IMG/VR virus record: IMGVR_UViG_3300031867_000034
Span: 15,798 to 79,797 of that record
DNA length: 64,000 bases
Reading direction: 5' to 3' (one strand)
From: a virus
Taxonomy: Duplodnaviria > Caudoviricetes
The position numbers were made by a program, and so were the translations under genes. The notes below the pieces were generated by a model, which saw only the letters and a program-made list of their open reading frames with translations, was not told the origin of the DNA and searched no databases. This document shows, piece by piece, positions 6,355 through 53,236 of the stretch. How positions within the stretch are numbered: position 1 is the first letter of the stretch; every line of letters starts with the position of its first letter.

Positions 6355-7020
6355 ATGAGTGTAATGATTTGCCATGCTTCAATAGATGAAAACGGAAGAG
6401 CCAAGGGCGGAAAAGCCGCCGACCAAACCGGAAAAGAAGTGTGCATCCGTACATGGTACAATAAGCCATGGGGATGTGTTATAAGGTTTAAGGATGCCAA
6501 GATGGCGGAAAAGGTTGCCGCTTGCATGGAAATGGCGGCAAAGAATAACCATATTGGCTATGACCAAAACCAAAGAAACACACTTCTTACCAAAGCCAGG
6601 AAATACAATTACAATGTTTCCAAGGTTGCGGAAGATTGCGAAACGGATTGTAGTGCCCTTGTATCTGTTGCTTGCATGTATGCCGGCATTCCGGAAAGTA
6701 TGCTTACACTAAATGGAAATTGTGCCACAACAAGAACATTGCGCCCTATTCTTAAGGCATCCGGCGAAGTGGATGTATTTACAACACCACTTTACACATC
6801 CAAGCCGGATAAGCTGATAAGAGGCGATATTCTTTTAAAAGAAGGGGCACATGTTGCGGTGGTGGTAAAAGGGAATCAAAGCACAAAGAGCCTGGATGAA
6901 ATTGCCAAAGAGGTAATTGCTCTTAAGTGGGGCACCGGCATTGAACGGAAACAGAGATTAAAAGCCGCCGGCTATAATCCGGAGGAAGTACAAAAAAGAG
7001 TTAATGAGTTGTTAAAATGA
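6355..7020 (+). CDS. Endolysin: NlpC/P60-like Cys peptidase plus CW_7 cell-wall-binding repeat
   Basis: TDCSALV…GDILLKEGAHV catalytic Cys/His. C-terminal SLDEIAKEVI..KWG.G.ERKQRLKAAGY..EEVQKRVN is a CW_7 repeat. Confidence 0.8.
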   Translation: MSVMICHASIDENGRAKGGKAADQTGKEVCIRTWYNKPWGCVIRFKDAKMAEKVAACMEMAAKNNHIGYDQNQRNTLLTKARKYNYNVSKVAEDCETDCSALVSVACMYAGIPESMLTLNGNCATTRTLRPILKASGEVDVFTTPLYTSKPDKLIRGDILLKEGAHVAVVVKGNQSTKSLDEIAKEVIALKWGTGIERKQRLKAAGYNPEEVQKRVNELLK

Positions 7021-42616: not shown

Positions 42617-45600
42617 ATGGCTAAACAGTCAATGAAACAGCAGATATATCAATCAATAGCAAATAGTCAGGTACAAAAGGTAATGTCTCAGAAAAGAGAT
42701 CAGGAGATTGCACAGTTACAAGCTGATTATGATGCTTGGGCTAAACAGCAAGCAGAAATACAGCAGTTACAGGCAGATTATGACGCATGGTTAAAAGAGA
42801 ATAATCCTCAGCCTGTTCAGACTCAGCCAGTACAACAGGCTACTGTTAATGAGATTAAACAGCAGATACCTTCTATTGCTGATTATGATAAGACAGCAGA
42901 TAATTTGCAGTACAGACAGGCCAAGAGGAATATCGCATTAAGAGATAAGCAGCGTGAGGACTACCAGCGTCAGCAGCAGATGGAACAGGAACTTGCTGAT
43001 CCAAGATATGCTGAAAAAGAAAAGAAAAAGACAGAATTTAAGCAACTATCTAATCTTGCAGATTATCAGGCTGCTATGGATGCTCAGAAAAAGCAGACTC
43101 AAAACAACTATGATGATTTAGTGTCTACTGTTCAGAATATGGAAAAAGCTGATAAGTGGCTTGATCCGTCCTATAAGTTGTCTAAGGAAGAGGAAAAGGA
43201 AGCTAAGAAGGTTGCTGAGACTGAGCTTGCAAAACTGAAGGGCAGAAGTCTTACAGATGAAGAAAAGGCAAGAAAGCAGACTTTTGAGGACCTTAAGACC
43301 AAGACAAGCAATTTTAGATCTTTTGCTGTTGGTGCTGCTGATAAGGCATTGGATTACGGAAAGTTTATTTTACAGGGTGTGGCTGATACTCAGTCAAGAC
43401 AATTAGCGGCTCAGAATGAAACGGCTCAGGCTATGGGTGTTAATACTGGTTTAACTAATGAAGAGTTAAGCGGTATTGATGAAGAGACAAAAGAAAACAT
43501 TCAGAGGCTAAATGATAGTACTGCTGATATTGTCCAGAATGTTAAGACTCAAAGTCCTAGAGCATATGGTCGCGGTCAAATGTCTACACAGCTTGCAGCA
43601 TACATGCTTACTAATCCGGCTTTTGATTCTTTGGGTACTGCTGTAAATGCTGGTAGAATAGGTTCTTTTGCTGCTAATCAGGTCGGACAAAATGCTCAGG
43701 ATCTTGTACTAGAAGAATTACCAATGCTTCAAAAGGCTATGAATGATGGTGATATATCTGAGGAAGAGAGAAATGAGATTTTAAAGACCGCCGGCTATAA
43801 TGCTGTTGGTAATCTTATTCCTGGTATTGCTATGGAAGGTGTTAATAGTGTTATTGCTAAAAGGGCGGCTGATGCTGCGTCCAATGAAGCATTCAGGCAG
43901 AATGTAAAGCAAGGCGCTGATTATCTTGAATACATCAATAAGAATGGTATCACTGGCCTTGAACCAAAGGCTAATGAAATTCCACAGATAGATCCTACCA
44001 CTGCAGCTAATAATGATTTTACTAGGCTGATGAATGAATACAACAATACATTCAAGGATGATTCTGCCATGAGAAATATTTATAGCGAAGAGGATCTTGA
44101 TGGTAGTCTTAACAAGCAACTTTCTGAGGCATTAGCAGATAATTCAAAGGCTTCTGTAAAAAAACCACAAATTGATAATATCAATGCTGCGCTTGATAAG
44201 GTGAATGCTGGAAGAACTACATATATTAAAGATTTTTATGAAGGCCCTAAACCAGTTTCTTTAGGTAATTCAGAACGTATAGAAATAGCTCCTGATACAT
44301 ATAACAGGGCATTGGATATTTACAATAAGGCAAAACAGGATGGCTCCTTTGGTCCTAGGCTCAGGCAGTATGTAAAACAGTTATATGAATCAAAGTATAA
44401 AGATCCGAAATATGGGCGAGTTATTTTAAATAACGTTTCTTTTAATGATGGTGATTATGTTGTTGAAATTGGTCACAGAGCTTTAAAAGAAGCTATTGAT
44501 AAAGGACATTTATCACCAGAGAAAATTGCTACACTTGAAAAACTGGATGATCTTCTAGCAGATAGTGAGTTCATTGATAGCGGTTTACCCAAATATCATG
44601 GAACAACTAATAAGTCACAACTTGTAAGATATGATTATTTTGAAACACCTATAACAATTAATGGAAAGAATTATATAGTTGGATTTGATGTAGAAGTAAA
44701 TAAAGGTGGTAATAGATATAAAACACATAAGGTAGTAAATGAAATAAACCTCATCCCTACTGAGGGACAAGGTTTAACTTCAAATATTACTGAGACCACC
44801 GCATCCAAGGGATTAACGGATGGAATTGGGGTAACACCCGATCGCATAACGGGGATCCCTACTCAGCAGTTAGAAAGATCTCTTTCTAACTCAAACATAG
44901 CAGATGCTATCTCAGAAGTCAATAAAAAATCTGTAAAGAATATTGACATGCCACAAGATGCTCAGGAAAAGATATTATCTGACTTTGAGCAGATTTATAA
45001 CAGCATGGATGATATGAATGCTGCGGCTGAAGCTTCCGGAAACGCTAAGGCAATTGAGAAGTTTGAAAAACTGCAGCAGTCAGTATTTGAGTATGAGGAC
45101 TCTGTCTGGAAGTCTGAAAGTCTGGATGATGTTAATAAAGCTAAGAAAAAAGCGGATGCAGCTAGACAGGCTTTTGTACGTGAAATGCAGAAGACAGATC
45201 CTAACTATAGGGCTAGTCTTACCGGCACTAAGCTTGGCAATGCTGAGTTTAGACGTACTTCAACAGCACCAACAGATAGCGCATTGTTGGATGAAATTGT
45301 TGATGATATGGTTAAACAGGATATGGATAATCCTAATCGTTTTGTTAAAGATGCAAACAAAACCGATATTCCTGTTAATGCTCCTGTTAGCGGTAATGGT
45401 GAACTTGAAATACACACTATACATGGTAGAAATGGTAGAGAGATTTACCAAGTTGTATCAAGGGAAGGAGATTTACTAACTCCGGTTGAGCCTGGAAAGA
45501 CTTTCAACACAAGGGAAGAAGCAGAGAAAGCTATAGATCAGTACAGAACAATGGCTGAGTCTATAAGCAAACCTAAGAGCGACATTATCACATCTGAGCC

Positions 45601-48600
45601 TATCGAGCCAGGAAAGTATGAGATACCAGATACACCGGAGAACGCGCCTAAAGATGTTCCTCCTGTTGATGGTATGAAAGAACGCGGAACATCTAAACAT
45701 ATCCGTAATGATGGCACTCCAATGAGGATGGAAGGCGTATCGGACGAAGTAGTATCAGACTTTAAAGACAATCCAGATATGTATAAGGCGCTTAAAAACT
45801 CTGATACATTATCTAAGGCTGAGAAAATCTATAATGAGAGTTCAGATGCTTTAGTTGACTTTAGAGATATGGTTAGAAACCATGATCCCGCTGCCCTTCC
45901 ATTAGGACACCAACTTGCTAAAGATTATTCTGCTGCCGGAAATCACGAAGCTGCTGCTCAGATTTATAGAGAAATGGGAGAACAGCTTACAAAAGCCGGT
46001 CAATTCTCACAAGCGGCAGCAATTAATATGATGAAGAATGATCCTCTTACCGCAAGAGCCTATTTTGAACGCGAATTAGATGCGTTAAATAAAGCCGGCG
46101 CTGACAAGTATGGTAAGAAGTGGAAAGATTTTGTGTTAACAGATGAAGAGCGAGCATTATTTGACAAAATCGCTCCTGGCGATTCTGAAGCCATTAAAAA
46201 TGCAATAGATAAAATAGGCGTCAGAATTGAGAAAGAATATCCGGCTTCTGCATGGGAAAAGGTCCTTGAATTTAGAAGAGTAGCCATGTTATTTAACACT
46301 AGGACTATTGTTAGAAATACATTGGCTAACCCTCCTACAGCGGCACTGCGATATGTTTCTGATAGGATTGAAGCTCTAGGCCAATATGCAGCACACTTAA
46401 TCGATCCGGACTTTGAGGTTACACAAGCAATTCGCGGAAGTAACCTAGAAACAAGAAAACTTGCAAAGGAGGTATATAATTCCAGCAAAGTTAAATCTTT
46501 GTTAGAAGGCGGAACAGGACGTTTATCTGAGATTCCTTCAGTTGGTGATTATGCCAAGTCGAAGCAGATGTTTAAAGGCGGATTTGTTTCTGACTGGGTT
46601 AACAAAATGACTAATGGTGGCGTTGAAAAGCTTAACGCAAAACTCGGTAAGGAGAACGCAAAGTCTTTACTTGAACTAACTAGAAGTTCTGCTTATAAAG
46701 CCCTTGAAGTTACTGATAACCCAATGGTCCGTGAAAACTTTATATCAAGACTTGGAAGTTACATACGCGCAAAAGGAATAAAAAATGCCGCAGACGTTCC
46801 AGACGAAGCTATATTGATGGCTTACGAAGAAGCAATGAAAGCTACTTATAAAGATAATAGCTTTATGGTTCAGGCTATTCGTAATTTTAAAAGCGGCATA
46901 GAAAGAACTGGAAACCATATTATTCCTGGTTTGGGTGATATGGCAAGTCAGGCTTTGATTCCTTACGTTCAGGCACCGGGAAATATTGCTGCAAGAACAA
47001 TAGACTATAGCGGCATAGGTTTTGGTAAAGGTATCGCCAAGATTGTTAAAGGCGCTTCTGCAAATGATGTAAAGATGATATCTAAAGGCATTGAAGAAGC
47101 TTCTAAGGGAGCAACAGGATCGTTAATGGCAGCGCTTGGATATGCTCTTTATAAATCTGGTGTCATAACAGGTACTTATTCTAATGACAACGATCAAAAA
47201 GCCTTTGAGAAAAAGAATGGATTTAGAGAGTTTGCTTTTAGATATAAGGTAAATGGACAGACAAAATATGACACTATAGACTGGATGCAACCATTTGTTG
47301 ATACAATTATGCCTGGCGTTTTGTTAGCTCAAGCAATAGAAAATTCTGATAAGTACGATTCAGATATTCTAAGATATTTTGGATTTGAAGGAACAAAACT
47401 AGGCAAAGTAACAGGCGTGGCAAAAGAAGGAGTAAAGAAGAATGTCAATTACTTCTTTGATTCAACGCCGCTTAAAAACCTTGGAGAACTGTTTAAAGGC
47501 AATTATGGTAAAGAAACAGATTTAGCTGGTAATTTATGGGAAAATACAGTTGAAGATTTTGCAAGTGCATTAGTCCCAGCCGGAGTAAACGCCGTTACAA
47601 AGTCTGTTGATCCAATACAAAGGCAAACATACGACCCTAGCAATGCGTTTGGAACTTTTGTAAATGGTGTTGCTGCAAAGTTACCTAAAGTATCTGAGGC
47701 TTTGCCAGTTAAGTATGATACCTGGGGGCAGCCAATGACTTATGGCAATAGCAAGGGTGAGGCTGCTTTTGCAAAGATGTTATATCCTGGCGAACACACA
47801 AGTGATAAGGCAGATGAAACAGATAAAGAGCTTAATCGCTTGTTTGAAACAACAGGTAGCAACGCAGTATTCCCTCAAGTCGCCCCAAGTAAAGTAAATG
47901 GTGAGAAAATCAATAATAAAGAAGTCTCTCAGTATCAACAGGACGTAGGTGTTCGTAACAAATTACTGGTAGATGGTTTTATTAATTCCAGTTATTATGA
48001 TGCTTTAGAAGACACAGACAAGGCCGATAAAATCGCTAAATTATATGGTGTTTCAAAAGCTATTACGGAGCGCGATAAGTTTGGCAAGGAAGTGTCTGAA
48101 AATAGCGAATACAAAAAAGCTATTGAAGCATATGATGAAGCTGGTGGTGGAGAAAAGGGTGTAGATGCAGTAATTAACCATTATACAGCTAAAAAAATAA
48201 CAGATGATGCCGGTATAAATGCAAATTCAAAGGTTGCTGAACAGGTCCAAGATGCCGTTGCAAATGGAAATATGCAAGAAGCACAGAAAATAGCAAAGAA
48301 TGAAGGCCAAAAATTAGATATGTATGAGAAATATGGTCTTGATAACAATTCTACTTCTAAAAAGGTTTATGAAGACTATGGAGAAAGTGGATTGAAAGAT
48401 CTTTCAGCTATGAAATCAAAAGGCTTGGGAGCAACAGCAACTTATGTTTATGAAAGCGCCAAAAAAGAAGTGAGTTCTTCCGAATTACCATCTATTGAAA
48501 CTTTTGCTAGTACCTACAAAAAGATTGATAACTATGGTAATTCTAATGGCTCTGTAAATCAAAAAGAATTTCTTGCATATGCTAAGAAAAACAATCTTTC

Positions 48601-48700
48601 AGAAAGCGAAGCACAGAAACAAGCGCAACTATACGGAGATTGGAAACAAATTCCATATTTAAAGAAAGATGGATCCTGGGGATTCCATAAAGCTAAATAA
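42617..48700 (+). CDS. 2,027-aa ejection/polyvalent protein with an LPD3/BECR-like domain at ~44240-44755
   Basis: Largest ORF, at the end of the podoviral late operon. Domain YDYFETPITINGKNYIVGFDVE…YKTHKV resembles polyvalent-protein RelE-fold modules. Confidence 0.65.
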   Translation: MAKQSMKQQIYQSIANSQVQKVMSQKRDQEIAQLQADYDAWAKQQAEIQQLQADYDAWLKENNPQPVQTQPVQQATVNEIKQQIPSIADYDKTADNLQYRQAKRNIALRDKQREDYQRQQQMEQELADPRYAEKEKKKTEFKQLSNLADYQAAMDAQKKQTQNNYDDLVSTVQNMEKADKWLDPSYKLSKEEEKEAKKVAETELAKLKGRSLTDEEKARKQTFEDLKTKTSNFRSFAVGAADKALDYGKFILQGVADTQSRQLAAQNETAQAMGVNTGLTNEELSGIDEETKENIQRLNDSTADIVQNVKTQSPRAYGRGQMSTQLAAYMLTNPAFDSLGTAVNAGRIGSFAANQVGQNAQDLVLEELPMLQKAMNDGDISEEERNEILKTAGYNAVGNLIPGIAMEGVNSVIAKRAADAASNEAFRQNVKQGADYLEYINKNGITGLEPKANEIPQIDPTTAANNDFTRLMNEYNNTFKDDSAMRNIYSEEDLDGSLNKQLSEALADNSKASVKKPQIDNINAALDKVNAGRTTYIKDFYEGPKPVSLGNSERIEIAPDTYNRALDIYNKAKQDGSFGPRLRQYVKQLYESKYKDPKYGRVILNNVSFNDGDYVVEIGHRALKEAIDKGHLSPEKIATLEKLDDLLADSEFIDSGLPKYHGTTNKSQLVRYDYFETPITINGKNYIVGFDVEVNKGGNRYKTHKVVNEINLIPTEGQGLTSNITETTASKGLTDGIGVTPDRITGIPTQQLERSLSNSNIADAISEVNKKSVKNIDMPQDAQEKILSDFEQIYNSMDDMNAAAEASGNAKAIEKFEKLQQSVFEYEDSVWKSESLDDVNKAKKKADAARQAFVREMQKTDPNYRASLTGTKLGNAEFRRTSTAPTDSALLDEIVDDMVKQDMDNPNRFVKDANKTDIPVNAPVSGNGELEIHTIHGRNGREIYQVVSREGDLLTPVEPGKTFNTREEAEKAIDQYRTMAESISKPKSDIITSEPIEPGKYEIPDTPENAPKDVPPVDGMKERGTSKHIRNDGTPMRMEGVSDEVVSDFKDNPDMYKALKNSDTLSKAEKIYNESSDALVDFRDMVRNHDPAALPLGHQLAKDYSAAGNHEAAAQIYREMGEQLTKAGQFSQAAAINMMKNDPLTARAYFERELDALNKAGADKYGKKWKDFVLTDEERALFDKIAPGDSEAIKNAIDKIGVRIEKEYPASAWEKVLEFRRVAMLFNTRTIVRNTLANPPTAALRYVSDRIEALGQYAAHLIDPDFEVTQAIRGSNLETRKLAKEVYNSSKVKSLLEGGTGRLSEIPSVGDYAKSKQMFKGGFVSDWVNKMTNGGVEKLNAKLGKENAKSLLELTRSSAYKALEVTDNPMVRENFISRLGSYIRAKGIKNAADVPDEAILMAYEEAMKATYKDNSFMVQAIRNFKSGIERTGNHIIPGLGDMASQALIPYVQAPGNIAARTIDYSGIGFGKGIAKIVKGASANDVKMISKGIEEASKGATGSLMAALGYALYKSGVITGTYSNDNDQKAFEKKNGFREFAFRYKVNGQTKYDTIDWMQPFVDTIMPGVLLAQAIENSDKYDSDILRYFGFEGTKLGKVTGVAKEGVKKNVNYFFDSTPLKNLGELFKGNYGKETDLAGNLWENTVEDFASALVPAGVNAVTKSVDPIQRQTYDPSNAFGTFVNGVAAKLPKVSEALPVKYDTWGQPMTYGNSKGEAAFAKMLYPGEHTSDKADETDKELNRLFETTGSNAVFPQVAPSKVNGEKINNKEVSQYQQDVGVRNKLLVDGFINSSYYDALEDTDKADKIAKLYGVSKAITERDKFGKEVSENSEYKKAIEAYDEAGGGEKGVDAVINHYTAKKITDDAGINANSKVAEQVQDAVANGNMQEAQKIAKNEGQKLDMYEKYGLDNNSTSKKVYEDYGESGLKDLSAMKSKGLGATATYVYESAKKEVSSSELPSIETFASTYKKIDNYGNSNGSVNQKEFLAYAKKNNLSESEAQKQAQLYGDWKQIPYLKKDGSWGFHKAK

Positions 48701-48994: not shown

Positions 48995-50062
48995 TTATGC
49001 TTTCTTTTTCTTGTATTGTTCCTTGAAAGTATCTTCAATGTAGTTATTGGCTATCTGAGTATATTTCTTTCTATTAGAAGTAAGAGTATTGTCGTAAACC
49101 CTTTTCAATACAGTAGATTCATTCTTCCATCCACCGACTTCTTCAACATATTTCTGTGGTATTCCTATATCAGTTCTGAAACTTGCAGCATAATGTCTGA
49201 GACTGTGGAAGGAACATTTTAATCCTAATTTGTCTCTTAAGTGTTGGAAGTTGCTAGTGATCTGATTAGGATTAAGTCCAAAAACATAGCTTTCAGGATC
49301 TTCAGAAACAGGAAAAGTATCTATTATGAATTTTGGTAATTGCACACATCTGTTACTACCTGAAGTTTTGGGAAAATCCTTGTAAATAAAGCCTTCGTCA
49401 GTCTGTACAACATCAGCGTGAACATAAACAGTGCACATGTCCCTGGATATATCTTTTTGTTTGAGTGCTGCTATTTCTCCACGCCTTAAGCTACCAAAAG
49501 CGGCTACGCCGATAACGGGCTTCATTATATCGCTTGCGTTGTCCAGAAGCATTTTTACATCATCAACATCCGGTGAGACAACATTTGCTGGTTTAGGTTG
49601 GGGATATCTGAGCTTGAATTTTTTATCACATCCGGCATAATCCAAAGCTGACAATAAGAATGATATCCTTGTTTGTATTGTCTTCTTAGTTATAGATATG
49701 CTCCATTCGTTAATGATTGGCTGTATATCGGACGTTTTTATGTCATATACAGAAATATATGATATGGATTCAAAAAGCGGTAAAAAACGCTTATAATCGT
49801 ATATCGTACGTGGTGAAAGAACCTTCTCTCTGTCTTTAATATAAAGCTTTAAAGCATTCTCAACAGTATAATTATTTTCTTCATCTTCTGCATTTAAAGT
49901 CCACTCTCTAGCTTTTAATTCAGATAGATCTCTGGCTTTTCTCCAATCATTACCACATTCTTTTGGATGTACAGTAAAAGACTTCCGGATCAGTTTCCCA
50001 TTTATCTTTTTGTTGGCTTGTGTTCGCCATGCTCCGCTTGGGAGTTTGATTGCTTTTGCCAT
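48995..50062 (-). CDS. int: Tyrosine integrase
   Basis: SLRRGEIAAL, FHSLRHYAAS, GGW…RVY catalytic residues. Confidence 0.93.
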   Translation of the reverse strand: MAKAIKLPSGAWRTQANKKINGKLIRKSFTVHPKECGNDWRKARDLSELKAREWTLNAEDEENNYTVENALKLYIKDREKVLSPRTIYDYKRFLPLFESISYISVYDIKTSDIQPIINEWSISITKKTIQTRISFLLSALDYAGCDKKFKLRYPQPKPANVVSPDVDDVKMLLDNASDIMKPVIGVAAFGSLRRGEIAALKQKDISRDMCTVYVHADVVQTDEGFIYKDFPKTSGSNRCVQLPKFIIDTFPVSEDPESYVFGLNPNQITSNFQHLRDKLGLKCSFHSLRHYAASFRTDIGIPQKYVEEVGGWKNESTVLKRVYDNTLTSNRKKYTQIANNYIEDTFKEQYKKKKA

Positions 50063-50078
50063 AATAGCACCTTTCTGA

Positions 50079-50522
50079 TTATGAACTCATTATATTTAAC
50101 AACATATCAATGTTTGTGGCAAAATCATTTATAATGCCTGCTTCGTAGCGATTAAGATATTCCTGGCACTCTGCTACAATCTGCTTCTCGTTCTTATCAA
50201 TGATGGCTTTTATTAAAGATGCGTAAACGTTATTTTCTGTATGAAAAGGATGAAGCCATTCTCTCTTTACAGGAAACATTTTTAGATAATGCAATCCGTG
50301 GCGATTGTAGTCTTTGGTTGTAGATCTTGGTGGTAATGGAAAATACTGATTCTTTGGAGCACTCTTTGAAATATTTGAGCGAAGGGGAATAGCGAAATCA
50401 TATCTTGAGCCCTTATATTTCAATCTGATAACCAGTGCTGAAGGCCTATCTGCCTTTTGAAGCATTTCAGGATCTTTGGAATATCCTTTCAATGCAGTCT
50501 TATCTATAGTTATTAGTCGCAT
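50079..50522 (-). CDS. ToxN/AbiQ/TenpN-like type III toxin (endoRNase)
   Basis: PEML.K..RP…FAIPLRSNI…GLHYLKMFPV pattern. Upstream terminator and pseudoknot RNA. Confidence 0.7.
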   Translation of the reverse strand: MRLITIDKTALKGYSKDPEMLQKADRPSALVIRLKYKGSRYDFAIPLRSNISKSAPKNQYFPLPPRSTTKDYNRHGLHYLKMFPVKREWLHPFHTENNVYASLIKAIIDKNEKQIVAECQEYLNRYEAGIINDFATNIDMLLNIMSS

Positions 50523-50540
50523 ATTTCCTCCAATACAAAA

Positions 50541-50564
50541 GGGAGACTACCGAAGTAATCTCCC
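50541..50564 (-). terminator. Terminator between antitoxin RNA and toxin
   Basis: GGGAGAUUAC-UUCG-GUAGUCUCCC-UUUU on the minus strand. Confidence 0.85.
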
Positions 50565-50565
50565 C

Positions 50566-50658
50566 TACACATGAACGATATTCTACGCTATGCACCCCGT
50601 CGTCCACGGAAGCTAAACATACACGTCTGTTATATTCTAGCCGTAACAGTCGGCTTCT
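50566..50658 (-). ncRNA. Putative type III antitoxin RNA with two H-type pseudoknots
   Basis: Promoter TTGAAA-17-TATTCT (50693-50665). Two units share UAGAAUAU and A(C/U)GUGUA. Confidence 0.65.
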
Positions 50659-50821
50659 AAGAGAAGAATACCTTATTATTTCTGTTTTTTCAACAACATG
50701 ATATGGTGTTAACACCAAGGGTATAAATACTATATGTTGCGTTTTTTGTTTTGTCTATCACAATTTTGTGAAACATGAGAGGGGAGCATTTATGCTTTTG
50801 CCAATGTAGACCTCCTTTATT

Positions 50822-51823
50822 TTAATTAAAAGGTAATTCTTCATCTATGTCGTCTGGAATAGTCATAAACGCATCAACTTTATTCCACGCTTGCAATATG
50901 TTGCTATTAAAAAAGACTGAATGACTTCCGCATATTGGGCAATAACGCGCATTAGAAGGCAATATAATATTACAATTAGAATTAGAACAAGCATTTATTA
51001 AACGCGTACCACAAATTTGGCAGAAATGACCTTCAATAGCAGTTTCTTCATTTCCGCATATAGGACATTTTAGTAACTTATTTTCCGTATTAACTGCTAG
51101 CATTGGATATTTCATGTTATCGCCATTACCCCATTCCATTTTGTGTCCGCATATAATACATATAGAGCTTTTTTGAATTGAACCATATCCACAAATGGGA
51201 CACACTTTTTTATAAAAGAAATTGCTAAATATTTTAAGTATTCTGTCCGTGAATCCTAATTTAGCGTAATTAGCATAATCTAATTCTAAAAAAGAAAGTC
51301 TTGTAGCTGCTGCTAAATAAGATATTCCAAAAATAGAACAAATATTATCTAAAGACTGGTCTTTCAAATGTTTAATCATGCTTACTGGGACAAGTACATT
51401 CCTCGCGAAAGCATTGGCTTCATTTTCAAGAACTTTATATTCTTTAAAAGAAAGACTACTAAATTCATTTTTAGGGATTACAACTGTTTTTTCATATTTG
51501 GCCAGGTGCCCTAAATAAACATGCCCTATTTCATGCATTAGAGTAAAACGAACTCTTCCTTCAATGAGGGTATCATTATAATAGATAATACAATCATGGC
51601 CATCATAAAAAGTTATTGCGTCTTTGGTATGTAATTTTGCACATACTTCGTCAACTGTTATATCGTTTTGTCTTGCAACATTAGAATATGTCTCTAGATC
51701 TAAGCCTATTTCATGTATTATATCAATAGGATTTACCGGAAAAGAATTAATATTAAAGTCTTCAAGAAATTCACAGGCGCGCTTGCTGCAATAATAATAA
51801 TCTGCATAAAAAGGAATGTTCAT
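50822..51823 (-). CDS. ImmA/IrrE-family metallopeptidase with C-terminal Zn ribbons
   Basis: RVRFTLMHEIGH…ENEANAFARNVL. Multiple CPICG motifs. Confidence 0.85.
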   Translation of the reverse strand: MNIPFYADYYYCSKRACEFLEDFNINSFPVNPIDIIHEIGLDLETYSNVARQNDITVDEVCAKLHTKDAITFYDGHDCIIYYNDTLIEGRVRFTLMHEIGHVYLGHLAKYEKTVVIPKNEFSSLSFKEYKVLENEANAFARNVLVPVSMIKHLKDQSLDNICSIFGISYLAAATRLSFLELDYANYAKLGFTDRILKIFSNFFYKKVCPICGYGSIQKSSICIICGHKMEWGNGDNMKYPMLAVNTENKLLKCPICGNEETAIEGHFCQICGTRLINACSNSNCNIILPSNARYCPICGSHSVFFNSNILQAWNKVDAFMTIPDDIDEELPFN

Positions 51824-52164
51824 TAATTATTTTTCCGCTTATTATCTTTATACATTTTTATCATGTTTACTACAAAGCTTTGATCATCTTCCGACATGTC
51901 TTGCATTTCTCTAGCAGCGGATCTTATCAGAGAAGAAACTTCTGATGTTTCAGAACTTAGACCTTCAGTACCCATTAATTCACCCGCAGAAACATCAAAG
52001 ATTTCTGCAAACTGCATAATTTTACTTTGAGGCAAATCTATGTCGCCTTTTTCTATTTTTGCAATAGAAGAACGATCAGTATAGTTTGCCTTTTTAGCTA
52101 ATTCTTCTTGTGACCAACCATGCATAATGCGATATTTTTTTATGTTCTTATATAATTCAAGCAT
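51823..52164 (-). CDS. CI-like XRE repressor
   Basis: WSQEELAKKANYTDRSSIAKIEKG. Divergent from the cro-like gene. Confidence 0.88.
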   Translation of the reverse strand: MLELYKNIKKYRIMHGWSQEELAKKANYTDRSSIAKIEKGDIDLPQSKIMQFAEIFDVSAGELMGTEGLSSETSEVSSLIRSAAREMQDMSEDDQSFVVNMIKMYKDNKRKNN

Positions 52165-52221: not shown

Positions 52222-52272
52222 TTGACAATCAACACGTAATGTTGTAATTTATGATTAGTGAATTAAAATCAC
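52222..52272 (+). promoter_or_regulatory. Lytic promoter TTGACA-17-TAATTT with palindromic operator GTGAATTAAAATCAC (second copy GTGATTTAAAATCAC at 52491-52505)
   Basis: Direct sequence reading. Confidence 0.6.
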
Positions 52273-52286
52273 GCAAGGAGGAAGCA

Positions 52287-52499
52287 ATGACTAACGGGAA
52301 AATGTTGAGAGATAAGATAGACTCTTTAGGTATTAGTATAACTTTTCTGGCCAATAAAATCGGTTGTTCGCGCGGACACGTGTATGACATTATAGGCGGA
52401 ACAGAATGTACAGCATCCGAAATAATAAAGTTTTCAGAAGCATTGGGCCTTACTAAAAGAGAAAGAGACAATATTTTTTTGCAAAAAAGAGTGATTTAA
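52287..52499 (+). CDS. Cro-like HTH protein
   Basis: GISITFLANKIGCSRGHVYDII. Confidence 0.8.
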   Translation: MTNGKMLRDKIDSLGISITFLANKIGCSRGHVYDIIGGTECTASEIIKFSEALGLTKRERDNIFLQKRVI

Positions 52500-52528
52500 A
52501 ATCACATTTACAAAGAGGGAGGGGGACT

Positions 52529-53236
52529 ATGAACGAACTAAAAACATTCAACTTTGATACTCAGACAGTATCAGCAAGGGAGTTACACGAACAACTCAAC
52601 ATTGAAACACCTTTTCACAAATGGTTTCCAAGAATGTGTGAGTACGGATTTACAGAAGGTACAGACTTTTGGACAAAAATGTCCGAAAGTACCGGAGGTA
52701 GACCAGCAACTGAATATGAAGTCTCAATCGACATGGCAAAAGAAATCTGCATGATCCAGAGAACACCGGAAGGCAAGAGAGTAAGAGAGTACCTTATCCA
52801 GCTTGAAAGAGCATGGAATACACCAGAGCTTGTAATGGCTAGAGGGCTTCAAGCGTCACAGAAGCTATTGGAAGAGAGCCAGCAGAAAATCAAACTGCTA
52901 ACTGCAGAAAATGAGCGCATGAAGCCCAAGGAAATATTTGCAGATGCAGTAACAGCCTCAGATAGCTCGATTCTTGTAAGAGAGTTGGCAAAGATACTCA
53001 GACAGAATGGTGTGGAAATAGGTGAAAAGAGGCTATATAAATGGCTGCGTGATAATGGCTACATCATTAAAGGTACTACACAACCTACACAAAGGGCTAT
53101 GGAAATGGGGCTGTTTGAGGTTATCGAAAGAACAACTCAGAGAGCAGATCTTCCACCAATAGTAACACGAACAACAAAAGTTACCGGCAAAGGACAGCAA
53201 TACTTCATTAATAAGTTTTTATCTAAAGCATCATAA
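52529..53236 (+). CDS. Antirepressor (AntA/AntB plus KilAC domain)
   Basis: VSARELHEQL…DMAKEICMIQRT; KPKEIFADAV…ILVRELAK…TKVTGKGQQYFINKFL. Confidence 0.9.
   Translation: MNELKTFNFDTQTVSARELHEQLNIETPFHKWFPRMCEYGFTEGTDFWTKMSESTGGRPATEYEVSIDMAKEICMIQRTPEGKRVREYLIQLERAWNTPELVMARGLQASQKLLEESQQKIKLLTAENERMKPKEIFADAVTASDSSILVRELAKILRQNGVEIGEKRLYKWLRDNGYIIKGTTQPTQRAMEMGLFEVIERTTQRADLPPIVTRTTKVTGKGQQYFINKFLSKAS

What the first reader, a model, noticed from the sequence alone, without database searches (positions are those of the whole stretch)
50079..50693. Type III-like toxin with an antitoxin of two sequence-divergent, structure-conserved pseudoknots
Seen (minus strand): promoter, then unit 1 AGCCG-A-CUGUUA-CGGCU-AGAAUA-UAACAG-ACGUGUA (S1 AGCCG/CGGCU, S2 CUGUUA/UAACAG), then unit 2 …UUCCGU-GGACGA-CGGGG…AGAAUA-UCGUUC-AUGUGUA (S2 GGACGA/UCGUUC), then a UUCG terminator, then a ToxN/TenpN-like ORF. 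Established: ToxIN/CptIN/TenpIN antitoxins are near-identical tandem pseudoknot repeats and confer abortive infection. Here the stems are wholly different while AGAAUA and AYGUGUA are kept, so repeat-based finders would miss it. Inference: a variant type III family carried as a prophage defence moron next to int; the two RNAs might neutralise different toxins.
Basis: partly seen in the sequence, partly recalled or inferred. Interest (0 to 1): 0.8.

Follow-up and report, generated by a model that had tools for sequence, protein, structure and literature searches.

The report
Phage-borne TenpIN-like type III toxin-antitoxin
A temperate phage carries, next to its integrase, a predicted RNA-cutting toxin held in check by an upstream RNA made of two unlike pseudoknots. 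It is a real but unannotated branch of a known defence system, and unlike repeats of this kind were already published for its closest relatives.

Summary
On the minus strand a promoter-like site is followed by a 36-nt pseudoknot (50655-50620), a 54-nt pseudoknot (50619-50566), a UUCG-loop terminator and a 147-aa ORF (50522-50079).

The ORF is a remote TenpN homologue:
- NCBIfam TenpIN gives E 8e-11 but 42 bits, against a cut-off of 90.
- hhalign against canonical TenpN gives 90.6% probability.
- The catalytic PLRS Arg-Ser motif is kept.
- The AlphaFold model (pLDDT 92) has ToxN, AbiQ and CptN as its five best PDB matches.

The two-unit RNA recurs upstream of homologues in 60 other distinct loci, with strong covariation: unit-1 S2 covaries at 6 of 6 pairs, unit-2 S2 at 5 of 6. 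Each unit resembles its counterpart in other genomes more than its own neighbour. More distant relatives carry classic tandem arrays of the unit-2 type.

Best reading: a type III toxin-antitoxin of tenpIN kind, sitting as a moron in a phage lysogeny module.

The novelty claim is overstated. Non-identical tenpI repeats that Tandem Repeats Finder misses, both of them functional, were published in 2025 and 2026. What is new is an unannotated toxin clade, a distinct RNA family with no Rfam match, and a conserved short-plus-long pair. The idea that the two RNAs serve different toxins has no support.

The parts
50665..50693 (-). Promoter-like site TTGAAA-17-TATTCT
   Evidence: Consensus scan, 9 of 12 matches. 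Relatives in the window's subclade have -10 boxes about 11-13 nt before S1. Not verified by any transcript data.
50620..50655 (-). Antitoxin unit 1, a 36-nt H-type pseudoknot. S1 is 50654-50651 with 50643-50640. L1 is 50650. S2 is 50649-50644 with 50632-50627. The loop AGAAUA is 50638-50633. The 3' tail ACGUGUA is 50626-50620.
   Evidence: Sequence. Covariation in 61 loci: S2 has double changes at 6 of 6 pairs and is 100% paired; the 4-bp S1 is 97.5% paired.
50566..50619 (-). Antitoxin unit 2, a 54-nt pseudoknot with an extra hairpin. The 5' tail UGUUUAGCUU is 50619-50610 (its last two bases also start S1). S1 is 50611-50607 with 50599-50595. L1 is 50606. S2 is 50605-50600 with 50578-50573. 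P3 is 50594-50586. AGAAUA is 50584-50579. The tail AUGUGUA is 50572-50566.
   Evidence: Sequence. S2 has double changes at 5 of 6 pairs and is 99.5% paired; P3 at 3 of 4 pairs; S1 is 99.7% paired. The same unit type forms classic tandem arrays in L038, 57 nt x 3.1 at 96%.
50535..50566 (-). Intrinsic terminator between the RNA and the toxin gene (12-bp stem, UUCG loop, T-run)
   Evidence: Terminator scan. It is also the dominant hairpin in the minimum-free-energy fold. A hairpin plus T-run sits at this position in relatives.
50079..50522 (-). Toxin gene, 147 aa, TenpN-like endoribonuclease. RBS GGAGG at 50531-50527.
   Evidence: NCBIfam TenpIN E 8.2e-11, 42.3 bits, cut-off 90. hhalign against canonical TenpN 90.6%, E 1.3e-6. 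AF2 pLDDT 92.2. The top five PDB matches are ToxN, AbiQ and CptN, TM 0.54-0.73. P46, R48, S49 and N50 are invariant.
48995..50062 (-). Context: tyrosine integrase. It starts 16 nt after the toxin stop, on the same strand.
   Evidence: Pfam Phage_integrase E 9e-9. PHROG 1 integrase E 2e-37.
50822..52164 (-). Context: ImmA/IrrE-type M78 metallopeptidase with zinc ribbons (50822-51823) and an XRE-type repressor (51823-52164), upstream on the same strand
   Evidence: Pfam Peptidase_M78, DZR and HTH_3. PHROG repressor families. Divergent Cro-like and Ant genes at 52251-53236.

Best explanation
This is a type III (protein toxin, RNA antitoxin) toxin-antitoxin module of the tenpIN kind, carried in the lysogeny region of a temperate phage.

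Proposed mechanism:
1. One promoter transcribes the two RNA units. Most transcripts stop at the UUCG terminator and a minority read through into the toxin gene, so RNA exceeds toxin.
2. The 147-aa protein is a ToxN-fold endoribonuclease with an Arg48-Ser49 active site.
3. It cuts the precursor at the conserved ...AYNUGUA | UGUUUA... junction, and probably after the second AYNUGUA.
4. Each released pseudoknot keeps its 3' tail in the active-site groove of one toxin molecule. Both units therefore act as inhibitors of the same toxin, most likely in a closed 2 protein : 2 RNA ring like E. coli TenpIN.
5. When phage infection or transcription shut-off stops RNA supply, free toxin cleaves cellular and phage RNA. 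This gives abortive infection or exclusion that benefits the lysogen.

The two units have mutually non-complementary S2 stems. I infer that this lets each knot fold on its own and removes long direct repeats from the phage genome.

Shown by computation: the fold, the homology, the RNA structure, the operon layout and the linkage of RNA to toxin. Inferred: toxicity, the cleavage site, the stoichiometry and the defence phenotype.
For: Toxin:
- TenpIN HMM E 8e-11.
- Profile-profile match to canonical TenpN 90.6% over 109 columns, sharing the PE(M/L)..K.RP, VP(L/F)RS.I and G(L).Y.K motifs.
- PLRS matches the mutationally validated TenpN P53-L54-R55-S56 (PMC13682666; invariant residues).
- The AF2 model has pLDDT 92. 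Its five best PDB matches are all type III toxins (2xd0 TM 0.73, 7d8o, 4glk, 4ato, 4rmo); MazF and CcdB score far lower.

RNA:
- In 61 distinct loci 95% of cells are paired, against 83% when shuffled and at most 49% when the partners are slid.
- 17 of 26 pairs show double changes. The covariation score is 0.444 against at most 0.111 when slid.
- There are 22 different unit-1 S2 helices and 14 different unit-2 S2 helices. Cognate pairing is 6 of 6; cross-unit pairing is about 2.6 of 6, which is random.
- The topology (1-nt L1, A-rich loop across S1) matches the published tenpI and cptI architecture.
- A terminator lies between the RNA and the toxin.

Linkage:
- The covariance model hits only directly upstream of toxin genes, on the toxin strand, in 620 kb. 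This includes loci that were not used to build it (L016, L086, L095-L100, L104, L106). The one exception is in L042.

Relatives:
- Some relatives have textbook arrays of the unit-2 type (L038 57 nt x 3.1 at 96%, L093).

Both units under selection:
- Unit 1 to unit 1 identity between genomes is 0.76, and unit 2 to unit 2 is 0.82.
- Unit 1 to unit 2 identity is 0.625 within a locus and 0.618 between loci, so there is no concerted evolution.

Precedent:
- Both non-identical E. coli tenpI repeats rescue and co-purify with the toxin.

Context:
- Integrase, repressor, ImmA and Ant genes in a virus record.
- Homologues lie beside restriction-like and other TA genes.
Against: - There is no experimental evidence for toxicity, processing, binding or phage defence.
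- The toxin is well below the NCBIfam TenpIN cut-off (42 against 90 bits). It has no Pfam or PADLOC match.
- The RNA shares no sequence with canonical tenpI, and the model does not hit the canonical array in L103.
- Unit 1 lacks the conserved 5' tail UGUUUAAC of unit 2. In most relatives a 5' hairpin takes its place, so a symmetric closed ring is not assured.
- In L057 the region before the conserved cleavage junction shows only a simple hairpin on inspection. That hints unit 1 could be dispensable as an inhibitor.
- The sequence after unit 2 is not conserved, so a second cleavage there is unproven.
- The shuffle statistics are inflated by the relatedness of the sequences.
Confidence: 0.62

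Rival explanations
1. [quoted passage not shown] Unit 1 is a helper. It is a structured 5' module that supplies the upstream cleavage junction (ACGUGUA|UGUUUA) giving unit 2 its correct 5' tail, and it may protect the transcript's 5' end.
For: - Only unit 2 has both single-stranded tails that contact the toxin in solved complexes.
- The unit-2 type alone forms the arrays in L038 and L093.
- Unit 1 has no UGUUUAAC tail and is preceded by a hairpin in most loci.
- In L057 the region before the junction shows only a plain hairpin on inspection.
- Classic loci often hold about 1.9-2.2 repeats, which is just enough to release one full unit (Blower 2012).
Against: - Unit 1 keeps the full pseudoknot with 6 of 6 covarying S2 pairs, the AGAAUA loop and the AYGUGUA tail across 61 loci. 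That is more than a cleavage site would need.
- In E. coli TenpIN each non-identical repeat rescues on its own.
- A 36-nt pseudoknot is enough for ToxI. This rests on established knowledge, not on a test here.
Confidence: 0.25
2. The structured RNA is a cis-acting leader, a riboswitch-like or protein-dependent attenuator. It controls read-through into the ORF and integrase and has no antitoxin role.
For: A structured RNA followed by an intrinsic terminator ahead of a gene is the usual layout of attenuators. The integrase starts 16 nt after the ORF and may depend on the same read-through.
Against: - No alternative antiterminator pairing is conserved. The terminator sequence varies freely while the knots are conserved.
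- The element is a duplicated unit, and it forms multi-copy tandem arrays in relatives.
- The downstream protein is a ToxN-fold TenpN homologue.
- Most homologous loci have no integrase downstream.
Confidence: 0.04
3. The module is an inactive relic: the protein no longer cuts RNA, or the RNA no longer binds it.
For: The subthreshold family score. Nothing has been tested experimentally.
Against: - The ORF is intact, with invariant catalytic residues and 53% mean column identity across 28 homologues.
- The model has high confidence.
- The RNA helices are maintained by compensatory change.
- At least 522 species genomes carry relatives.
Confidence: 0.05
4. The antitoxin is a small protein encoded by the 72-codon ORF 50718-50500, which overlaps the RNA region. 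That would make this a type II-like system.
For: The ORF exists in the window.
Against: - In 30 of 61 loci no reading frame is open across the region.
- The length of the region modulo 3 varies: 35 loci at 1, 20 at 2 and 6 at 0.
- Variation follows base-pairing, not codons.
Confidence: 0.01

Closest known systems
TenpIN type III toxin-antitoxin (Photorhabdus luminescens; E. coli/Klebsiella/Salmonella system with cryo-EM structure, PMC13682666; survey PMC12283969)
   Same: - Closest toxin family by HMM and by profile comparison, with the same PLRS Arg-Ser catalytic motif.
- Same operon order: promoter, RNA units, terminator, toxin.
- Two non-identical units that Tandem Repeats Finder misses.
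- H-type pseudoknot with a 1-nt L1 and an A-rich loop along S1.
- Unit 2's length (54 nt) falls in the tenpI range of 39-57 nt.
- Also found in phages.
   Different: - The toxin scores 42 bits against a cut-off of 90. Ten sampled family members score 20-42 bits or not at all, and none reaches the cut-off. BLASTP aligns only 43 residues to a canonical TenpN.
- RefSeq calls members of this clade hypothetical proteins.
- The RNA sequence is unrelated. Canonical tenpI in L103 has a 7-bp S1, a short S2 and an AAAAUAAAA loop, and the covariance model does not hit it.
- Here S1 (4-5 bp) is shorter than S2 (6 bp).
- The units differ by 18 nt in length (36 against 54), compared with 3 nt in E. coli. 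They share 59% of 34 core positions, compared with the published 'up to 35% variation'.
- The short-plus-long pairing is conserved across families and phyla.
CptIN (Eubacterium rectale, PDB 4RMO)
   Same: Predicted fold match TM 0.66. The RNA is a pseudoknot with a single-nucleotide L1 and an A-rich loop making A-minor contacts, in a 2:2 ring. It is also found in gut Firmicutes.
   Different: The window protein has no CptIN HMM match at E <= 1, and only some clade members score 19-27 bits. cptI repeats are near-identical, 40-48 nt.
ToxIN / AbiQ-antiQ (Pectobacterium, E. coli, Lactococcus; PDB 2XD0, 7D8O, 4GLK)
   Same: Best structural matches, TM 0.65-0.73. ToxI is 36 nt, the same length as unit 1. 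Same general logic of self-processing and inhibition.
   Different: No Pfam ToxN_toxin match. ToxI repeats are near-identical, have a different knot with balanced loops, and form a 3:3 triangle.

Membership tests
Type III toxin-antitoxin systems (general) | Toxin with the ToxN/AbiQ/CptN endoribonuclease fold | tested here: met
   AF2 pLDDT 92.2. Foldseek top five are 2xd0, 7d8o, 4glk, 4ato and 4rmo, probability 1.00, TM 0.54-0.73. This is a prediction, not a solved structure.
Type III toxin-antitoxin systems (general) | Array of RNA units forming pseudoknots directly upstream of the toxin gene | tested here: met
   Two H-type pseudoknots supported by covariation in 61 loci. The units are non-identical, so no tandem repeat is detected.
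Type III toxin-antitoxin systems (general) | Rho-independent terminator between the RNA and the toxin gene, under a single upstream promoter | tested here: met
   The terminator is at 50566-50539. The promoter is a consensus match only, at a conserved position.
Type III toxin-antitoxin systems (general) | The toxin processes the RNA precursor and is inhibited by the processed RNA; the toxin alone is toxic | not testable with these tools
   Needs expression, rescue and RNA end-mapping experiments.
tenpIN family | Toxin reaches the curated TenpIN model cut-off (NCBIfam NF047358, 90 bits) | tested here: not met
   42.3 bits for the window protein. Ten clade members score 20-42 bits or not at all. 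A canonical TenpN in the same genome as L005 scores 174 bits.
tenpIN family | Significant sequence homology to TenpN, including the catalytic Arg-Ser | tested here: met
   E 8.2e-11. hhalign 90.6%, E 1.3e-6. P46-L47-R48-S49 corresponds to TenpN P53-L54-R55-S56.
tenpIN family | tenpI-type RNA: 39-57-nt repeats, S1 longer than S2, long A-rich L2 | tested here: inconclusive
   Unit 2 (54 nt) fits the length range but unit 1 (36 nt) does not. S1 is shorter than S2. The loop AGAAUA is A-rich but short. There is no sequence or model match to a canonical tenpI array.
toxIN family | Match to the Pfam ToxN_toxin family; 31-62-nt near-identical ToxI repeats | tested here: not met
   No Pfam hit other than a chance DUF1033 at E 0.15. 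The repeats are not near-identical.
cptIN family | Match to the NCBIfam CptIN model (NF047359) | tested here: not met
   No match at E <= 1 for the window protein. Some relatives give weak hits of 19-27 bits.

The most novel reading that the evidence does not exclude
The two units are not interchangeable repeats but subfunctionalised parts of an obligately asymmetric antitoxin. One is a short, 5'-capped pseudoknot. The other is a longer pseudoknot with both tails and an extra tetraloop hairpin. Together with two toxin molecules they would form a 2:1:1 ribonucleoprotein, or unit 1 would act as a dedicated processing or nucleation module. On this reading the toxin clade is a fourth sequence family of type III systems, widespread in gut bacteria and their phages. 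Toxin-less copies of the RNA beside integrases (L042) would then be decoys or attachment sites.
Probability: 0.3. Interest if true: 0.65.

Novelty: new variant of a known kind. Interest (0 to 1): 0.45.

Why it matters
- The clade is large: relatives were confirmed in at least 522 of the species genomes scanned, plus phages and Enterococcus conjugative plasmids. It spans Lachnospiraceae, Oscillospiraceae, Negativicutes, Erysipelotrichaceae, Coriobacteriia and Bacilli.
- Public annotation calls these proteins hypothetical. Pfam, PADLOC and Rfam have no entry for the protein or the RNA.
- This gives a covariation-backed consensus structure for a tenpI-like antitoxin. Blower et al. 2012 could not align tenpI, and the 2025 survey could not define antitoxin boundaries in about 20 of 42 viral operons.
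- Non-identity of repeats here is an old, maintained state rather than decay. That bears on why type III antitoxins are repeated at all.
- Practically, a covariance model such as R1 could find these loci where repeat-based pipelines fail. That would improve defence-system annotation in gut microbiome and prophage genomes.

Tried and rejected
- Rfam scan at E <= 10: only chance-level hits.
- Tandem Repeats Finder on the window region: nothing.
- PADLOC: no hit for the toxin.
- Sequence searches of the PDB with the protein and with the family profile: only chance hits. The fold search was needed.
- tblastn against GenBank phages: no match.
- Supplementary tables of the 2025 tenpIN survey are not held. 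I could not check whether any member of this clade is among its 722 sequences.
- Earlier notes of this scan near the site held nothing relevant.
- A genome-language-model preprint that mentions type III TA uses them only as a repeat benchmark.
- Nested minimum-free-energy folding recovers S1 and the terminator but cannot show pseudoknots.
- The 72-codon ORF over the RNA was rejected as a protein antitoxin.
- A conserved integrase neighbour was rejected. Only about 7 of 93 loci have a related integrase downstream.
- The weak TTCT/AGAA hairpin before unit 1 in the window overlaps the -10 box and is probably not the P0 hairpin seen in relatives.
- Complex prediction was not used, because it does not model protein-RNA pairs.

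Full report
**What is in the sequence**

Read on the minus strand, the region holds the following, in order:
- a promoter-like TTGAAA-17-TATTCT (50693-50665);
- a 36-nt unit, AGCCG-A-CUGUUA-CGGCU-AGAAUA-UAACAG-ACGUGUA (50655-50620);
- a 54-nt unit, UGUUUAGCU-UCCG-U-GGACGA-CGGGG-UGCAUAGCGU-AGAAUA-UCGUUC-AUGUGUA (50619-50566);
- a 12-bp terminator hairpin with a UUCG loop and a T-run (50566-50539);
- a GGAGG ribosome-binding site;
- a 147-codon ORF (50522-50079).

The shared motif AGAAUAU-N5-AYNUGUA occurs exactly twice in the 64-kb window, both times here. Tandem Repeats Finder reports nothing and Rfam has no match.

**The protein**

- It has no Pfam or PADLOC match.
- It matches the NCBIfam TenpIN toxin model at E 8.2e-11, but at 42.3 bits against a curated cut-off of 90.
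- A profile of 28 homologues aligns with a profile of canonical TenpN proteins at 90.6% probability (E 1.3e-6, 109 columns). Shared motifs are PE(M/L)..K.RP, VP(L/F)RS.I and G(L).Y.K.
- The invariant P46-L47-R48-S49 corresponds to TenpN P53-L54-R55-S56. In that protein R55A and S56A abolish toxicity (PMC13682666).
- AlphaFold2 gives a confident model (pLDDT 92.2).
- The five best PDB matches are all type III toxins: ToxN 2xd0 (TM 0.73), ToxN 7d8o, AbiQ 4glk, ToxN 4ato and CptN 4rmo. MazF and CcdB follow far behind.

**The RNA**

The toxin has hundreds of unnamed homologues:
- 281 protein clusters at 90% identity;
- 307 clusters at 50% identity;
- at least 522 confirmed stretches in species-representative genomes;
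- 13 viral contigs.

I aligned the upstream region of 60 distinct loci with the window's (A2) and counted pairs for the pseudoknotted structure.
- Overall, 95% of cells are paired. The figure is 83% in shuffles and at most 49% when partners are slid.
- 17 of 26 pairs change on both sides. The covariation score is 0.444 against at most 0.111 when slid.
- Unit-1 S2 covaries at 6 of 6 pairs and is 100% paired.
- Unit-2 S2 covaries at 5 of 6 pairs and is 99.5% paired.
- Unit-1 S1 is a conserved 4-bp GCCG/CGGC. The window's fifth pair is not conserved.
- Unit-2 S1 is a near-invariant (U/C)UCCG/CGGGG.
- Unit 2 carries an extra hairpin, P3, capped by GNRA or UUCG loops in relatives. It covaries at 3 of 4 pairs.

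The shuffle control is inflated by relatedness, but the slide control and the number of distinct helices are not. There are 22 distinct S2 helices for unit 1 and 14 for unit 2.

Half of the loci have no open frame across the region, and its length varies out of frame. The overlapping 72-codon ORF is therefore not a gene.

**Linkage and relatives**

A covariance model of the pair (R1) hits only immediately upstream of toxin genes, on the toxin strand, in 620 kb. This includes loci that were not used to build it. The window's own hit is by construction.

More distant relatives carry textbook arrays of the unit-2 type:
- 57 nt x 3.1 copies at 96% identity in an Erysipelotrichaceae genome (L038);
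- 54 nt x 2.1 copies in a viral contig (L093);
- A-B-A arrays in another virus (L092) and in Enterococcus faecalis conjugative plasmids (L101).

**The unlike pair is an old and maintained state**

Identity over the 34 core positions:

| Comparison | Identity |
|---|---|
| Unit 1 to unit 1, between genomes | 0.76 |
| Unit 2 to unit 2, between genomes | 0.82 |
| Unit 1 to unit 2, same locus | 0.625 |
| Unit 1 to unit 2, different loci | 0.618 |

Cognate S2 arms pair 6 of 6. Cross-unit arms pair about 2.6 of 6, which is random.

In most relatives a covarying 4-6-bp hairpin sits at the transcript's 5' end, just before unit 1. The window's subclade lacks it.

**Context**

The window is part of a 79.8-kb IMG/VR virus record with a single copy of the toxin. 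On the same strand lie an XRE repressor, an ImmA/IrrE-type M78 peptidase, the RNA-toxin module and a tyrosine integrase that starts 16 nt after the toxin stop. Cro-like and Ant genes diverge from this block. This is the classic position of a prophage moron.

Elsewhere, homologues lie beside SNF2 helicase and methyltransferase genes, RelB/PIN, MazF-like and Uma2 genes. Only a few have a related integrase downstream.

**Mechanism**

[quoted passage not shown] The RNA is made in excess because of the terminator. The toxin cuts at the conserved AYNUGUA|UGUUUA junction. The processed knots hold the toxin inactive, probably in a 2:2 ring like E. coli TenpIN. Loss of RNA supply during infection frees the RNase.

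I put 0.62 on this with both units acting as inhibitors. I put 0.25 on the variant in which only unit 2 inhibits and unit 1 serves processing or 5' protection.

Arguments for the variant:
- Unit 1 lacks the 5' tail.
- In one lineage (L057) the position of unit 1 shows only a plain hairpin on inspection.

Arguments against the variant:
- The full knot of unit 1 is conserved.
- Both E. coli repeats rescue independently.

A cis-regulatory leader, an inactive relic and a small-protein antitoxin are all unlikely.

**Comparison with what is known**

That is out of date.
- PMC12283969 (2025) reports tenpI repeats with up to 35% variation that Tandem Repeats Finder misses, including in phages.
- PMC13682666 (October 2026) shows two non-identical E. 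coli repeats, both functional, in a 2:2 cryo-EM complex with an H-type knot, a 1-nt L1 and an A-rich loop.

The principle is therefore published. What differs here:
- The toxin clade fails the TenpIN cut-off. Ten sampled relatives score 20-42 bits or not at all, and RefSeq calls members hypothetical.
- One Anaerovibrio genome holds both a canonical TenpIN (174 bits, 52-nt x 2.1 near-identical repeats) and a member of this clade.
- The RNA is unrelated in sequence to that canonical tenpI, and R1 does not hit it.
- The stem proportions are reversed: S1 is shorter than S2.
- The units differ by 18 nt and share 59% of core positions.
- The short-plus-long pairing is conserved across phyla.

None of the 25 tenpIN hosts of Blower et al. 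2012 belongs to the groups found here. I could not check the 2025 list of 722 sequences.

**Verdict**

This is a real, well-supported type III module, best filed as a new variant of a known kind. It works like TenpIN, but by the curated criterion it is not a member of that family. The suggestion that the two RNAs serve different toxins has no support. Interest is moderate: useful for annotation and for understanding antitoxin repeats, but not surprising to a specialist after the 2025-2026 papers.

Noticed in passing
L042:6582-6679 (second copy) versus L042:3852-3949: A Eubacteriales contig has a second copy of the two-unit RNA, about 94% identical over the RNA itself. Similarity stops sharply at both ends. 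No toxin gene follows; a tyrosine integrase gene starts at 6827. Between the two copies lie the toxin, an M78 peptidase, a MazF-like gene and a Uma2 nuclease gene. It could be an attachment-site duplication or a toxin-less decoy antitoxin.
   Followed up: partly
L103:1306-1414 and L106 (same Anaerovibrio slackiae genome as L005): One genome carries both a canonical TenpIN (toxin 174 bits; 52-nt repeats x 2.1 at 94% identity) and a member of the clade studied here (46 bits). The two kinds coexist, and their RNAs are unrelated in sequence.
   Followed up: partly
L101:2290-2450 (Enterococcus faecalis conjugative plasmid NZ_CP144765.1): Eight E. faecalis conjugative plasmids encode a toxin 36-37% identical to the window's, annotated as hypothetical protein. 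In the one read here it is preceded by an A-B-A array of three pseudoknot-like units and a terminator, next to DNA methyltransferase genes.
   Followed up: partly
Upstream of unit 1 in most loci of alignment A2 (for example L012, L023, L037, L090): A short hairpin (4-6 bp, often with a GNRA-like loop) sits 6-8 nt after a TATAAT box and directly abuts unit 1. Its stem sequences differ between loci. It is absent from the window's subclade.
   Followed up: partly
L048, L049, L051, L053, L077 (Oscillospiraceae and Ruminococcus): These loci have two or three long units with large, variable hairpin inserts in place of P3. They score only 27-41 bits with the model, so they represent a further architectural variant of the antitoxin.
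   Followed up: no
window 50822-51823 (-): The ImmA/IrrE-type M78 peptidase of the lysogeny module is fused to several zinc ribbons. It matches the PADLOC capP model at E 6e-18 over residues 14-177.
   Followed up: no
L096, L097, L099 (contigs carrying P0085, the most abundant homologue listed): The module lies beside an SNF2/ResIII helicase, a DUF4391 protein and an N6_N4 methyltransferase. In L095 it lies near a RelB/PIN pair and transposase fragments. This looks like a defence-island setting.
   Followed up: no
window 42617-48700 (+): A 2027-aa ORF ends about 300 nt from the end of the integrase gene. It has no PHROG match at E <= 0.001.
   Followed up: no
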